DNA of 64,000 nucleotides. Origin: Escherichia coli. GTDB taxonomy: Bacteria > Pseudomonadota > Gammaproteobacteria > Enterobacterales > Enterobacteriaceae. This document shows, in pieces, positions 36,401 through 39,400 of the stretch (position 1 is the first letter of the stretch; each line of letters starts with the position of its first letter). The stretch is from the NCBI RefSeq assembly GCF_046105845.1, contig NZ_CP151004.1; one strand, given 5' to 3'. The position numbers were made by a program.

Positions 36401-39400
36401 AAAGCGGTAGCTGTCACGGGCGGCAGTTTGCAGATTGATATCGTTGTTTGTTTTACCAAAGTCATACACCAGCTGTGTCAGGGTTATGCCATACGAAACG
36501 TTGTTATCAAGCCTGCCGCTGGAATCCGTTTGTCGGGACGGCCCCGCGTTGCCGGTTAATCCAACGTGCGGATACCAGGCACTTTTGGCTTCATCAATTT
36601 GCGCTTCGCCAATGCCTATCTGCGCCGCCTGTTGAGTGACGTCGGGATTTCGCGCAAAGGCGCGTAATATACTTTCCTGTAAAGATAATCGGGCAACTGG
36701 CGTTACCGCTGGGGCGTTCGCCCATTGTGGCAGCGGTGCAGCAATTGTAGCTTCTCCCATCACCATAAAACTTATTAAAAAAATAAACCCATTATTTTTA
36801 CGGCTTTTAAACTGGAATCGCGCCATAGATAAGTCACTTCCTTCCAGGTCATTATTTTAACTGGTTTTTATAACCAGTCTCATTTTATTAAGAAGGGTAA
36901 TAACTTGTGCATCTCTTTTGTCGATCATTGATATGGGCAAAGAAATGCAGCTAAAAAGCTTATACGTTATTTATTTAGAATACACTACGACTTTTAGATT
37001 ACCATCATACACATTAAGAATAATCCACGGTAATAAGTGATTAGCATCACAGATTTATCGCGTATATATCATTTTTTTGTGACTTATTTATTAAAGGAAT
37101 AAGAAAGGAAATTTGAATTAAAGACAAAGGCGCAGTACAGGCTGTACTGCGCACAGAGAGGTGTTATACGGTTTTATTGCGCTTCATGACCATTGCCACA
37201 ATAAGGCTGAGTAAGATTGCACCAATAATCCATATCAACGCACGGCTGCCCTGGGACCACAGGCTGTAGATAAAGCCAACGATCACCAACAACATCACCA
37301 ACGTACCTACGATAAGAATCGGCAACGAGGCGTGAATATCATGACGCAGGCGGATCGCCACCACAAACACCGCCAGATAGCAAATCAAAAAGGTGGCGCT
37401 GGCAACGCTGGCGAGTGAGCCTAAATTTAGTGCCGCCGTCATCAGCATAATCAACACCACGACAATGATGTTGCCCCAGGTACTCTGCCGCCACAGGGAT
37501 TTATTCATTAGCTTCGGCAGTTCGCGTTCGCTGCCCATGTTGTCCATGATGTTAAACACGGCGAACAGGTTCGCGTTGATGGCTGAAGCCGTCGCCAGTA
37601 AAGCGCCGATGACGACGATCACATAACCCACATGCCCGAGCAGCGGAGAAGCAGCCTGCGCTACGGCGGTATCGGCATATTTTTCTAACTCTAATGCCGA
37701 TACATCGCTAAGCAAAACCAGCGCCAGCGAGATATAAAGCAATGTGGTAACGCCAATCGCCACCAGAAACGCCCGTGGCATAATGATCTGCGGATCTTTC
37801 ACTTTATCCGCCGCGTTCGCCATCATGCCAAAGCCCGCATAGGCAAGGAAGGTTATCCCGATACAGGAGAAGAACGCACCGGAGCTGGGGGGCGCAGAGA
37901 CGGAAATATGCGCCGGTTGCAGCGACCAGACACCGGCAATAATCAGCAATAACAGGATCATCATTTTAATGCCGACGAGGATCACTTCCAGCCGCCCTAC
38001 CGCATGGTTGCTTAAGGAGTTGAAAAGCGTCATCACCGCAATGATCCCCAACGCGTAGAGCAATATAAGGTGCTCCTCCTGACTGCCTTCATGCAAAAAC
38101 TGCACGGCATAAGCGCCAAAAGCACGGGCGACCATGGCGATGCTCACCGCCAGCGTCAACAGGTACAATAACGAGAGTGCCAGCGAAAAGACGCCGTTGC
38201 CTAATCCGCGACGAAAGAAGTCGATAATACCGCCATTGCTGGGATAGCTCGCCCCCAGGCGCGCATAGGCATAACCGGAAAACATCGCCACAATACCGCC
38301 AAAAGCAAAGGCGACCCAGGTCGAGGCTTCCATTAGCAACGCAGCCTGCCCCAGCAGCGCGAAGATCCCCGCCCCCACCATTGCCCCAATACCGATGGAA
38401 ACGACGTTCCATAGACCGAGGGGTTTGTTATCGTTATTACCTTCCGTGTTCATCATGATCAGCCCTTAAACACGTTATAGCCGAGTTGCTTAGCGACCGA
38501 TGCCACCATTTTTTGACCGCGAACACTGTTGCCTTCTTCGTCCAGCGGTGGTGAGAACGCGGCAATTCCCATCACGCCAGGGACGACCGCCAGAATACCG
38601 CCACCTACACCGCTTTTGCCCGGTAAACCAACGCGATACGCCCAGTCACCGGAGCGACCATACAGCCCTTCCATCATCATTTCAGCCAGAATGTACGGCA
38701 CGTTGTCGGCCTGAAGAACGCGTTTATGCGTCAGCGGATTCACACCACCCGCCGCCAGCGTCGCGCCAAGCGTTGCCAGTTCAACAGTATTGATGAGCGT
38801 GGAGCACTGACGGGTGTACACGTCACAGGCTTCCATTGCATCACAATAGAGATATCCGGCGGAGTACAGCAGCCAGGCAATGGCCCGGTTATGGAAGTTG
38901 GTTGTTTGTTCCGACTGGTTTACTTCGTCAGAGAGCGCTACCTGCTCACCAGCCAGTTGTTGTTGGATATGTAAAATTCGCTGCCAGCGTTGTTCGGCAT
39001 TTTCAGCGTTAATCAGGCTGGTGGTGGCAATAGCGCCAGCATTTACCAGTGGCGACAGCGGTTTGCCGCCATGCAACTCTAAGGCGATAACTGAGTTAAA
39101 GGGCAATCCGGTCGGGTCAGCGCCAACTTTGTCCTGTACCGCCTGCGGGCCGACATCTTCTAACGCAAGGGCTAACGTACAGACTTTCGAGATGGATTCC
39201 AGCGCAAAGCGGTAATCACTATCACCCGCGCGATATATGTTGCCATCGCAGGTCACAATAGCCACTGCTGCCAGTTGACCAGGTACATTCGCCAGAAAGG
39301 GAATGTAGTCGGCATTTTGTCCGCCGTTAAGTGAGTGAAATTGGGTGTAAGCCTGATCCACTGCCTGCTGTAATTTGTTTGCATCTAACATCTTTTGTTA

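What the first reader, a model, noticed from the sequence alone, without database searches (positions are those of the whole stretch)
36827..37163. AT-rich 340-bp leader upstream of the T1SS operon
The interval between the TolC-like gene start and the ybaT terminator is conspicuously AT-rich relative to the GC-rich operon behind it. It is the only plausible promoter region for the 25-kb transcription unit and a likely site of nucleoid-protein silencing.
Basis: inference. Interest (0 to 1): 0.3.

Follow-up and report, generated by a model that had tools for sequence, protein, structure and literature searches.

The report
Known promoter region of OI-28 operon
The AT-rich 337-bp gap is real, and it is the already published promoter and 5' untranslated leader of the E. 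coli O-island 28 adhesin-secretion operon, so it is ordinary; silencing by nucleoid proteins remains untested.

Summary
Observation confirmed. Window 36827-37163 is exactly the 337-bp spacer between the ybaT stop and the ATG of a TolC-family gene. It has 32.6% GC, the lowest stretch in the window and the lowest of 23 local spacers.

The window is E. coli. The operon is O-island 28 (tolC28, siiEA/rtx, hlyB28, hlyD28), present in 958 of 5426 complete genomes.

The promoter reading is supported, but it is already published:
- The upstream region drives lacZ and binds RstA (PMC12758282).
- It is reported to be PhoB-regulated (Yoshida 2010, read only through citing papers).
- Cappable-seq in EDL933 maps start sites that transfer, through a gap-free alignment, to window 36970 and 36952 (minus strand). 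Each lies 7 nt after a -10-like hexamer. The main one is induced in stationary phase and leaves a 144-nt leader.

Read-through from ybaT is not needed. A good terminator intervenes, and the upstream operon's start-site signals are about 15-fold weaker.

"Only plausible promoter" is too strong: published internal start sites exist, and cueR has its own.

H-NS/StpA silencing is plausible from composition alone. I found no data for it.

My own additions are inferences: a CRP-like palindrome centred at -73.5, a Pho-box-like repeat, and a structured leader that hides the ribosome-binding site.

The parts
37130..37152 (-). Stem-loop of the ybaT intrinsic terminator (GCGCAGTACAGCCTGTACTGCGC). The U-rich tail CTTTGTCTTT follows at 37129-37120.
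   Evidence: Terminator scan. RNA fold -16.1 kcal/mol, z = -5.6. The hairpin is kept in Escherichia sp. E1V33 and E. whittamii. Homology to K-12 ends inside this hairpin, near 37136.
37107..37120 (-). Published RstA box, at -294 to -281 from the ATG and -150 to -137 from the main start site. The window reads TAATTCAAATTTCC; the published O157 box is TAATTCAAATTACC.
   Evidence: PMC12758282 reports EMSA binding that is lost when the box is removed. Position and the 1-nt difference (window 37109) come from the alignments. The exact 61-nt haplotype of the window occurs in 189 of 957 island-bearing genomes. The box is poorly conserved in the sister species (47% of columns).
37079..37096 (-). Pho-box-like direct repeat CTTTAATAAATAAGTCAC, followed after 10 bp by TGaTATATA (hexamer at 37068-37063). 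Candidate PhoB site; this is my inference.
   Evidence: It matches the Pho-box consensus at 14 of 18 positions, the best score in the whole 64-kb window, and is reached by 2.75% of shuffles. It is conserved in both sister Escherichia species and absent in other genera. No start site was seen here in eight conditions that did not include phosphate limitation.
37036..37051 (.). CRP-like palindrome TGTGAtgctaaTCACt, centred at -73.5 from the main start site. Inference only.
   Evidence: It matches 9 of 10 core positions and is one of 3 such sites in 64 kb against 1.9 expected. The half-sites are invariant while the 6-bp spacer differs in E1V33 and E. whittamii.
36977..37005 (-). Core promoter P1: weak -35-like ATGGTA (37005-37000), a 17-bp spacer, and the -10 hexamer TATTCT (36982-36977).
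   Evidence: The hexamer ends exactly 7 nt before the mapped start site. It is the -10 that BPROM picked in PMC12758282. The block 37009-36952 is 88% invariant across three Escherichia species, against 65-77% identity at third codon positions.
36970..36970 (-). Main transcription start site P1 (A), 144 nt upstream of the ATG. It is induced in stationary phase.
   Evidence: Cappable-seq in EDL933 places it at 579751. Read scores: exponential LB 0, MM 4.1, acid 0, salt 2.4; stationary LB 64.7, MM 53.0, acid 31.3, salt 9.2 (PMC10469882 supplements). The coordinate was transferred through a gap-free alignment, window = 616721 minus the EDL933 coordinate.
36952..36964 (-). Minor promoter P2: -10 hexamer TATAAG (36964-36959) and start site A at 36952.
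   Evidence: EDL933 start site 579769, seen in one condition, which by column count is stationary minimal medium. Mapped as above.
36827..36970 (-). 144-nt 5' untranslated leader of tolC28, predicted to be structured.
   Evidence: Folding 36970 to 36797 gives -41.8 kcal/mol, z = -4.5, with 0 of 200 shuffles as stable. All seven sequences share the same consensus structure. There is no covariation support.
36909..36948 (-). Leader stem-loop: arms GCAUUUCUUU (36948-36939) and AAAGAGAUGC (36918-36909) around a 20-nt loop.
   Evidence: The arms pair in all seven sequences, while the loop is entirely different in the two sister species.
36831..36906 (-). Predicted helix that hides the ribosome-binding site. 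Anti-SD CCUUCU (36896-36891) pairs with GGAAGG (36845-36840). An outer stem joins 36906-36899 with 36838-36831. An apical hairpin joins 36879-36872 with 36866-36859.
   Evidence: The stems are invariant. Eight one-sided changes across five pairs of the apical hairpin all remain G-U-compatible on the sense strand. Three cells there do not pair: one A-C in strain 631 and U-U at the base pair in the two sister species. This is a prediction only.
37104..37104 (+). Published weak antisense start site, reading into the 3' end of ybaT.
   Evidence: EDL933 579617 on the minus strand, listed as a downstream-antisense start site in one condition. Mapped.
35471..36826 (-). tolC28, the TolC-family outer-membrane component and first gene of the operon.
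   Evidence: Pfam OEP and NCBIfam TIGR01844, 415 bits. RefSeq annotation in strain 042.
35662..35662 (-). Published internal start site within the 3' end of tolC28, 294 nt upstream of the adhesin ATG. It lies in the second AT-rich patch (35319-35684).
   Evidence: EDL933 581059, at position 1164 of the gene, with read scores of 3.4-16.8 in stationary phase. CAAAAT lies at -12 to -7. AT-rich patch.
14579..35368 (-). siiEA (rtxA28/rtxB28): a 6929-aa BapA-related adhesin with Ig-like repeats, intact in this window.
   Evidence: ORF list. Pfam BapA_N, Big_13, FG-GAP and RTX nonapeptide repeats. The gene is frameshifted or interrupted in strains 042, EDL933 and PCN033.
11241..14575 (-). The type I secretion ABC permease/ATPase (12413-14575) and the HlyD-family adaptor (11241-12416). 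The adaptor's stop codon overlaps the cueR ATG.
   Evidence: TIGR03375 at 837 bits and TIGR01843 at 328 bits, the latter running to the last residue. ORF coordinates.

Best explanation
The interval is the regulatory region and 5' untranslated leader of the O-island 28 type I secretion and giant-adhesin operon of E. coli.

On the minus strand, from ybaT towards tolC28, it contains:
1. The ybaT intrinsic terminator.
2. About 110 bp of upstream regulatory DNA. This carries the published RstA box, a Pho-box-like direct repeat and a CRP-like palindrome.
3. A core promoter with a weak -35 and a -10 hexamer TATTCT, which is closer to the sigma-S-preferred TATACT than to TATAAT.
4. A main start site at 36970 that is switched on in stationary phase, with a minor start at 36952.
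5. A 144-nt leader that is predicted to fold so that the ribosome-binding site is paired.

What is shown by published experiments on near-identical sequence: promoter activity, RstA binding, the start sites, stationary-phase induction and RpoS dependence.

What is inferred here: sigma-S use at this particular -10, the CRP and PhoB site assignments, and the leader structure.

The AT-richness is what such a promoter-plus-leader needs. It would also make the region a natural H-NS target, but that is not shown.
For: Identity of the locus:
- The spacer is 99-100% identical to the ybaT/TolC-family spacer in 958 of 5426 complete E. coli genomes, including O157:H7, EAEC 042 and PCN033.
- The type I secretion components are confirmed by Pfam and NCBIfam.

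Promoter activity:
- A lacZ fusion of the tolC28 upstream region is active, needs RstA and responds to Ca2+. RstA ChIP-qPCR and EMSA are positive, and the EMSA needs the box at -294 to -280 (PMC12758282).
- PhoB regulation of ecs0540-0544 is cited from Yoshida 2010.

Start sites:
- Cappable-seq places start sites at EDL933 579751 and 579769. The main site has read scores of 0-4 in exponential phase and 9-65 in stationary phase.
- A gap-free alignment maps them to window 36970 and 36952. The sequence from -47 to +88 around P1 is identical to EDL933.
- Each site lies 7 nt after a -10-like hexamer.

Physiology fits:
- Z0608 and Z0609 are 55-fold and 20-fold RpoS-dependent.
- ECs0540 and ECs0541 rise 11- to 17-fold on entry into stationary phase.

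Conservation:
- The core promoter block and the Shine-Dalgarno-proximal leader are 88-97% invariant across three Escherichia species. Third codon positions are 65-77% identical.
- AT-rich upstream regions of 250-930 bp (27-43% GC) precede the orthologous operon in all 26 other loci analysed, from at least 8 other genera plus metagenome bins.
Against: - The start-site and reporter data come from O157:H7, not from this strain. This window differs at five leader positions: 37153, 37143, 37109, 37018 and 36882. One of them falls in the RstA box.
- The simple sigma-70 scan of the spacer finds no more promoter-like matches than shuffles do (2 against 2.0), and neither of its two hits is the mapped promoter.
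- The -35 is poor.
- The RstA box lies at -150 to -137, far upstream for a direct activator.
- The leader structure has no covariation support.
- I could not read Yoshida 2010, so the real PhoB site and any phosphate-starvation start site are unknown to me.
Confidence: 0.85

Rival explanations
1. The spacer is a xenogeneic-silencing site. H-NS/StpA would nucleate on the AT-rich patch and occlude the promoter. Sigma-S, RstA and PhoB would then act mainly as counter-silencers. This adds to the promoter reading; it does not replace it.
For: - The spacer is 67% AT, and GC stays below 40% (100-bp windows) over about 475 bp, with many A/T runs and 37 TpA steps.
- The RstA box lies at -150, a position easier to explain by counter-silencing than by contact with RNA polymerase.
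- Expression is off in exponential phase and depends on sigma-S, a pattern common among H-NS-repressed promoters (my own knowledge).
- A second AT-rich patch 1.1-1.4 kb downstream could serve as a bridging partner (speculation).
Against: - I found no occupancy or hns-mutant data for this locus.
- The H-NS nucleation motif gives only an 8 of 10 match, and such matches are common across the window (56 against 40 expected).
- The operon body is 57-60% GC, so a filament would not spread over it.
- Other ordinary spacers in the window have 33-38% GC.
Confidence: 0.4
2. The operon is driven mainly by read-through from the RpoS/GadX-dependent glsA-ybaT operon, and the spacer is only a leaky terminator region.
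For: - RpoS dependence falls along the gene order: ybaS 19-fold, ybaT 70-fold, Z0608 55-fold, Z0609 20-fold.
- The terminator's U-tract is interrupted (CUUUGUCUUU).
Against: - Primary 5' ends map inside the spacer, with read scores up to 64.7. The glsA start site scores 4.3 and the ybaT-proximal one 3.0.
- The upstream region alone drives lacZ.
- The terminator hairpin is stable at -16.1 kcal/mol.
- In the Sakai growth-transition arrays, ECs0540 and ECs0541 appear among the genes changed more than 4-fold, while ybaS and ybaT do not.
Confidence: 0.08
3. Under phosphate starvation a separate PhoB-dependent promoter fires about 85 bp upstream of P1. It would use the Pho-box-like repeat at 37096-37079 in place of a -35 and TATATA (37068-37063) as its -10. 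The start site would be near 37056 and the leader about 230 nt long.
For: - The arrangement is the canonical Pho-promoter one: an 18-bp box, 10 bp, then a -10 hexamer (as in pstS and phoA, from my own knowledge).
- The box scores 14 of 18, the best match in the window and reached by 2.75% of shuffles.
- It is conserved in the two sister species.
- PhoB regulation of this promoter region is reported.
- The RstA box would then lie at -64 to -51, a normal activator position.
Against: - No start site was detected there in eight conditions, although none of them was phosphate-limited.
- The hexamer lacks the T at -7.
- The box differs from the CTGTCAT half-site consensus at 4 positions.
- I could not check the site reported by Yoshida 2010.
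Confidence: 0.3
4. The AT-richness has no special meaning. It is the normal composition of an E. coli promoter-bearing spacer, made conspicuous only by the unusually GC-rich operon next to it.
For: - The local spacers have a median GC of about 45% and a range of 33-58%. Four others lie at 33-38%.
- The contrast is inflated by the 60.5% GC adhesin gene, which is far above the window mean of 55%.
Against: - It is still the lowest and the second-longest of the 23 spacers.
- Orthologous operons in all 26 other loci analysed, from at least 8 other genera, also carry long AT-rich upstream regions. That suggests a retained property of the regulatory region.
Confidence: 0.35
5. The spacer hides a small RNA gene, a riboswitch or a small protein gene.
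For: The leader is more structured than shuffled sequence (z = -4.5). Six short ORFs of 21-74 aa overlap the spacer.
Against: - No Rfam match at E <= 1.
- The only sense-strand ORF lying wholly within the leader downstream of P1, of 27 aa, runs through the block that is entirely replaced in the sister species.
- No feature is annotated here in the 958 genomes.
Confidence: 0.03

Closest known systems
OI-28 (tolC28 / ecs0540) promoter region of E. coli O157:H7 EDL933 and Sakai
   Same: It is the same locus. The spacer is 337 bp with no indels and 5 substitutions, and it is identical from -47 to +88 around the mapped start site. The flanking genes and operon order are the same.
   Different: - The window carries TTTCC where the published RstA box has TTACC.
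- The adhesin gene is one intact 6929-aa ORF here. In EDL933 it is split or interrupted.
asr promoter of E. coli (acid-shock gene)
   Same: It is reported to be controlled by both PhoB and RstA, two OmpR-family response regulators. asr served as the positive control for RstA binding in PMC12758282. The PhoBR link is from my own knowledge and from the reference list seen.
   Different: asr is a single small gene with its response-regulator sites close to the promoter. Here the RstA box lies 137-150 bp upstream of the mapped start site, and the transcript covers four genes and about 25 kb.
Salmonella SPI-4 siiABCDEF operon leader
   Same: An AT-rich upstream region controls a type I secretion system together with a giant Ig-repeat adhesin. 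H-NS silencing and relief by activators are described for SPI-4 (my own knowledge).
   Different: The gene order differs: tolC, adhesin, ABC, MFP here, against siiA-F in SPI-4. siiA and siiB are absent here. No HilA or SprB-type control is known for this operon. The operon body is GC-rich (57-60%), so silencing along the whole island is unlikely.
hlyCABD haemolysin operon leader (RfaH/ops-dependent)
   Same: A long type I secretion operon in E. coli whose full-length transcription is a problem in its own right.
   Different: There is no ops element (GGCGGTAGnnTG, allowing 1 mismatch) anywhere in 36827-37163. RfaH recruitment through this leader is therefore not supported.

Membership tests
Bacterial sigma-70-family promoter with 5' UTR | A primary (triphosphate) 5' end within the region, on the operon strand | tested here: met
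   Published Cappable-seq start sites at EDL933 579751 and 579769 map through a gap-free alignment to window 36970 and 36952. The data come from EDL933, not from this strain.
Bacterial sigma-70-family promoter with 5' UTR | A -10 hexamer at -12 to -7 with A at -11 and T at -7 | tested here: met
   For P1, TATTCT at 36982-36977 ends 7 nt before 36970 and has A at -11 and T at -7. For P2, TATAAG at 36964-36959 ends 7 nt before 36952 but has G at -7.
Bacterial sigma-70-family promoter with 5' UTR | A -35 hexamer resembling TTGACA, 16-18 bp upstream of the -10 | tested here: not met
   The best candidate is ATGGTA, matching 3 of 6 positions at a 17-bp spacing. The consensus scan did not call this promoter. 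A weak -35 fits an activator-dependent or sigma-S-dependent promoter.
Bacterial sigma-70-family promoter with 5' UTR | Promoter activity of the isolated fragment | not testable with these tools
   Published: a lacZ fusion of the tolC28 upstream region is active and depends on RstA (PMC12758282).
H-NS/StpA-silenced AT-rich regulatory region | AT content well above the genome average over at least 200 bp | tested here: met
   GC is 32.6% over 337 bp and stays below 40% (100-bp windows) over 36714-37189.
H-NS/StpA-silenced AT-rich regulatory region | A high-affinity nucleation motif (TCGATAAATT-like) | tested here: inconclusive
   There is one 8 of 10 match at 37061-37052. Such matches are common in the window, 56 against 40 expected.
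H-NS/StpA-silenced AT-rich regulatory region | H-NS occupancy in vivo and derepression in hns mutants | not testable with these tools
   I found no data in the papers and supplements searched.
Intrinsic (Rho-independent) terminator of ybaT | A GC-rich hairpin directly followed by a U-tract, just downstream of the stop codon | tested here: met
   A 10-bp stem with 6 G-C pairs and a 3-nt loop at 37152-37130, -16.1 kcal/mol, z = -5.6. The tail is CUUUGUCUUU. It starts 12 nt after the stop codon.
RstA-regulated promoter (RstA box) | Presence of the box that was shown to be needed for RstA binding | tested here: inconclusive
   The box position is conserved at 37120-37107, but the window has one substitution, TTACC to TTTCC. 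This haplotype occurs in 189 of 957 island-bearing genomes. Binding to the variant is untested.
Pho regulon promoter | An 18-bp Pho box (two CTGTCAT-like repeats 11 bp apart) lying 10 bp upstream of a -10 hexamer | tested here: inconclusive
   A 14 of 18 match at 37096-37079, followed after 10 bp by TATATA, reached by 2.75% of shuffles. No start site was observed there. PhoB regulation is reported, but I could not read the source paper.
CRP class I activated promoter | TGTGA-N6-TCACA centred near -61.5, -72.5, -82.5 or -92.5 | tested here: inconclusive
   It matches 9 of 10 core positions at 37051-37036 and is centred at -73.5, 1 bp off -72.5. The half-sites are conserved while the spacer diverges. 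A single site is not significant across the whole window (3 against 1.9 expected).
RfaH/ops-dependent operon leader | An ops element, GGCGGTAGnnTG, in the transcribed leader | tested here: not met
   No match with up to 1 mismatch in 36827-37163.
Known structured RNA leaders and riboswitches (Rfam) | A match to a curated covariance model | tested here: not met
   No match at E <= 1 in 36500-37500 on either strand.

The most novel reading that the evidence does not exclude
The 144-nt leader is itself a regulatory device. A conserved long-range helix pairs the ribosome-binding site (GGAAGG, 36845-36840) with an upstream CCUUCU (36896-36891). Translation of the outer-membrane component would then be gated after transcription, for example by temperature, by a small RNA, or by CsrA acting at the GGA-GGA motif.

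In the same reading, the far-upstream response-regulator sites would work by relieving H-NS, not by contacting RNA polymerase. The AT-richness would then be a selected regulatory property of an ancient island that Escherichia has kept and repeatedly lost, not a scar of recent horizontal transfer.
Probability: 0.2. Interest if true: 0.4.

Novelty: already known. Interest (0 to 1): 0.15.

Why it matters
OI-28 encodes a giant adhesin and its secretion machinery, and it is reported to be needed for early gut adherence of EHEC (PMC12758282). Its control region decides when a 25-kb, very costly operon is switched on.

The region's role as a promoter, two of its regulators (PhoB, RstA), its RpoS dependence and its start sites are already in the literature.

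What this check adds is modest:
- It puts the published pieces onto one base-level map.
- It shows that the published BPROM -10 agrees with the independently mapped start site.
- It shows that about 20% of island-bearing genomes, including this one, carry a substitution in the RstA box.
- It proposes a CRP site and a leader fold that hides the ribosome-binding site. Both can be tested.

Tried and rejected
- Rfam scan of 36500-37500: nothing at E <= 1.
- Small ORFs in the spacer: none is conserved. The 27-aa sense ORF runs through the block that is replaced in the sister species.
- The two hits of the sigma-70 consensus scan, TGCACA-18-TAAAAT (36911-36882) and ATGAGA-18-TAAAAT (36883-36854). 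They were no more frequent than in shuffles. Neither matches a mapped start site, and the first loses its -7 T in O157, where the promoter is known to work.
- My first working model put the main start site near 37056, downstream of the Pho-box-like repeat. I downgraded it to a conditional rival once the Cappable-seq data placed the start at 36970.
- ops/RfaH element in the leader: absent.
- H-NS nucleation motif scan: does not discriminate.
- H-NS evidence in the literature: nothing usable. The ChAP-seq supplement of PMC4720273 lists only core genes. PMC4764244 and a 2025 preprint do not mention the locus.
- Yoshida 2010 (PMID 20640580) is not held in the library.
- Pho boxes and CRP sites upstream of the orthologous operons in other genera: none above chance, so these sites are specific to Escherichia.
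- Covariation test of the leader structure: no compensatory changes, and no support beyond conservation and thermodynamics.
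Full report
**1. The observation**

The finding's coordinates are exact.
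- The ORF list gives a 451-aa ORF at 35471..36826 (-) and a 430-aa ORF at 37164..38456 (-).
- In RefSeq annotation of near-identical E. coli genomes these are a TolC-family outer-membrane protein and ybaT.
- So 36827-37163 is the 337-bp spacer between them.

Its composition stands out.
- GC is 32.6%. The whole window is 55.2%, the TolC-like gene 51.5%, the giant gene 60.5% and ybaT 53%.
- Only 0.4% of 337-bp windows are as low, and the window's minimum overlaps the spacer.
- Among 23 intergenic spacers of the same neighbourhood it is the lowest and the second longest. Four others lie at 33-38%, so it sits at the extreme of normal spacer composition, not outside it.

It is a 10-bp stem at 37152-37130, -16.1 kcal/mol, z = -5.6, followed by CTTTGTCTTT.

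**2. What the locus is**

The window is E. coli.
- The spacer is 99-100% identical in 958 of 5426 complete genomes, always between ybaT and the TolC-family gene. No feature is annotated in it.
- Behind it lie a 6929-aa adhesin with a BapA prefix domain, Ig-like repeats, FG-GAP repeats and RTX nonapeptide repeats (RefSeq name siiEA), then a type I secretion ABC permease/ATPase, then a HlyD-family adaptor.

This is O-island 28 of O157:H7: Z0608, Z0609/Z0615, Z0634 and Z0635 in EDL933; ECs0540-0544 in Sakai; tolC28, rtxA28/rtxB28, hlyB28 and hlyD28 in the recent nomenclature.

**3. Published evidence on this very region**

- PMC12758282 fused the tolC28 upstream region to lacZ. Activity needs RstA and rises with Ca2+. 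RstA ChIP-qPCR and EMSA are positive, and the EMSA needs a box at -294 to -280. BPROM, run on 320 bp upstream, predicted a -10 at GTGTATTCT.
- Two papers cite Yoshida 2010 for PhoB-dependent control of ecs0540-0544. I could not read the original.
- Microarrays show Z0608 and Z0609 to be 55-fold and 20-fold RpoS-dependent. ECs0540 and ECs0541 rise 11- to 17-fold on entry into stationary phase.
- The Cappable-seq study of EDL933 is the most direct evidence. It lists a main start site for EDL933_RS02775 at 579751 and a second at 579769. Read scores for the main site were:

| Condition | Exponential | Stationary |
|---|---|---|
| LB | 0 | 64.7 |
| Minimal medium | 4.1 | 53.0 |
| LB + acid | 0 | 31.3 |
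| LB + salt | 2.4 | 9.2 |

**4. Transfer to the window**

The EDL933 spacer aligns to the window without a gap. The conversion is window = 616721 minus the EDL933 coordinate.
- The main start is A at 36970 and the minor one A at 36952, both on the minus strand.
- Each lies exactly 7 nt after a -10-like hexamer: TATTCT at 36982-36977 and TATAAG at 36964-36959.
- TATTCT is the -10 that BPROM picked, so two independent lines agree.
- The -35 is weak (ATGGTA).
- TATTCT matches the sigma-S-preferred TATACT at 5 of 6 positions. Together with the RpoS and growth-phase data, this makes sigma-S use likely. That step is inferred, not shown.
- The window is identical to EDL933 from -47 to +88. It differs at 37153, 37143, 37109, 37018 and 36882.

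**5. Anatomy upstream of the core promoter**

- The RstA box is at 37120-37107, which is -150 to -137 from the main start. Here it reads TTTCC where the published box has TTACC. At least 189 of 957 island-bearing genomes share this haplotype.
- Next to it is a Pho-box-like direct repeat, CTTTAATAAATAAGTCAC, at 37096-37079. It matches 14 of 18 positions, the best score in the window and reached by 2.75% of shuffles. After 10 bp comes TGaTATATA, which is the canonical Pho-promoter spacing. No start site was seen there, but none of the eight conditions was phosphate-limited. I keep it as a conditional rival.
- A palindrome, TGTGAtgctaaTCACt, at 37051-37036 matches the CRP core at 9 of 10 positions and is centred at -73.5. 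Its half-sites are invariant, while its spacer differs in Escherichia sp. E1V33 and E. whittamii.
- These site assignments are my inferences.

**6. Conservation**

The island sits at the same ybaT site in Escherichia sp. E1V33 and E. whittamii. The leader as a whole is 79% identical to them, against 65-77% at third codon positions. By block:
- the core promoter block, 37009-36952, is 88% invariant;
- the Shine-Dalgarno-proximal leader is 97% invariant;
- the Pho-like repeat is 83% invariant;
- the RstA box is only 47% invariant;
- one leader block is entirely replaced.

In 26 loci from other hosts the orthologous tolC-adhesin operon is also preceded by 250-930 bp of 27-43% GC. The hosts are Enterobacter, Lelliottia, Pseudocitrobacter, Trabulsiella, Budvicia, Rosenbergiella, Pluralibacter, other Escherichia species and metagenome bins. 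The Escherichia-type motifs are absent from the non-Escherichia loci.

**7. The leader RNA**

Folding from the mapped start (36970 to 36797) gives -41.8 kcal/mol, z = -4.5.
- The replaced block turns out to be the loop of a 10-bp stem whose arms are invariant (36948-36939 with 36918-36909).
- A long-range helix pairs CCUUCU (36896-36891) with the ribosome-binding site GGAAGG (36845-36840).
- Changes in the apical hairpin are mostly G-U-compatible on the sense strand.
- There are no compensatory double changes, and the shuffling control gives no support.
- The structure is therefore a prediction.

**8. Read-through**

- For it: RpoS dependence falls along the gene order, with ybaT at 70-fold, Z0608 at 55-fold and Z0609 at 20-fold.
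- Against it: the primary 5' ends in the spacer; the activity of the isolated fragment; the stable terminator; and the weak start-site signals of glsA (4.3) and ybaT (3.0) compared with 64.7 for tolC28.
- Read-through may contribute, but it is not the driver.

**9. 'Only plausible promoter'**

The same dataset lists other start sites:
- an internal one at position 1164 of tolC28 (window 35662), inside the operon's only other AT-rich patch, 35319-35684;
- start sites 8 and 42 nt inside the adhesin gene;
- one at 601588, which by my estimate of the gene's start lies roughly 70 nt inside the ABC gene;
- a start site found in all eight conditions 160 nt upstream of cueR, inside hlyD28.

The tolC28-adhesin spacer has no terminator and more promoter-like matches than expected. 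So the leader is the main promoter region, but not the only one.

**10. Nucleoid-protein silencing**

This idea rests on composition alone.
- The nucleation-motif scan does not discriminate.
- I found no occupancy or mutant data.
- The GC-rich operon body argues against a spreading filament. Local occlusion of a patch of about 475 bp remains plausible.
- I put it at about 0.4.

**11. Verdict**

The supported part is already published, so novelty is 'already known' and interest is low.

Noticed in passing
window 11245-11339 and 37130-37136; K-12 locus L002 5870-5993: The 124-bp ybaT-cueR spacer of K-12 is a relic of the island. K-12 homology stops inside the ybaT terminator hairpin. It resumes in the last 95 nt of the HlyD-family gene, with a 3-nt and a 1-nt deletion. 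NCBIfam TIGR01843 matches the adaptor protein to its very last residue, so that sequence is native coding DNA. K-12-type strains therefore lost OI-28; carriers did not gain it. This differs from the 'acquisition' wording in the OI-28 literature. The island is also at the same site in E. whittamii and Escherichia sp. E1V33.
   Followed up: partly
window 11241-11244 and about 11404 (-): The cueR ATG overlaps the stop codon of the HlyD-family gene (ATGA). Published Cappable-seq places the EDL933 cueR start site 160 nt upstream, inside that gene, in all eight conditions. The same supplementary table lists 19 nt for K-12. The copper regulator's promoter therefore lies within secretion-gene coding sequence in strains that carry the island.
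   Followed up: partly
window 35319-35684, start site at 35662 (-): This is the second AT-rich patch, at the junction of tolC28 and the adhesin gene. It has no terminator, 4 promoter-like matches against 0.9 expected, and a published stationary-phase internal start site 294 nt upstream of the adhesin ATG.
   Followed up: partly
window 37109: The window has T where O157, 042 and two other strains have A, inside the published RstA box (TTACC to TTTCC). The exact 61-nt haplotype is shared by 189 of 957 island-bearing complete genomes. RstA control may therefore vary between strains.
   Followed up: partly
locus L033 (NZ_CP083585.1), equivalent to window about 36867: In strain ECNB21-M121 an IS1A element is inserted in the leader about 41 bp upstream of the tolC28 ATG. 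It separates the mapped promoter from the gene.
   Followed up: no
window 14579-35368 (-): The adhesin gene is a single intact 6929-aa ORF here. It is annotated as frameshifted or interrupted in EAEC 042, EDL933 and PCN033. Separately, PMC12758282 reports OI-28 as absent from EAEC and ExPEC. Yet EAEC 042 and PCN033 (an ExPEC strain, from my own knowledge) both carry it.
   Followed up: no
window 7216-10125 (+), repeats 7531-9352; AT-rich 6683-7364: A second small island lies between cueR and ybbJ. It holds a 969-aa YadA-like (trimeric autotransporter) ORF with 4.9 copies of a 369-bp tandem repeat at 98% identity. It is preceded by the window's other very AT-rich stretch (30.6% GC). The gene is much shorter in PCN033, at 1296 bp.
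   Followed up: no
window 45523-45534 (-): An exact match to the RfaH ops consensus, GGCGGTAGCGTG. It is the only perfect match in the window. By position it probably lies inside ushA, but I did not map it. It may be chance.
   Followed up: no
window 37104 (+): A published weak antisense start site, EDL933 579617 on the minus strand. It lies inside the RstA/Pho-like region and reads into the 3' end of ybaT. It was seen in one condition.
   Followed up: no
loci L008, L010, L012, L013, L016 (Enterobacter, Lelliottia): In these five loci a 263-aa ORF is transcribed divergently from the orthologous operon, across a spacer of about 690 bp at 33-35% GC. The L013 copy, the only one I scanned, is a DeoR-family regulator (HTH_DeoR plus DeoRC). 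Escherichia has no such neighbour.
   Followed up: no
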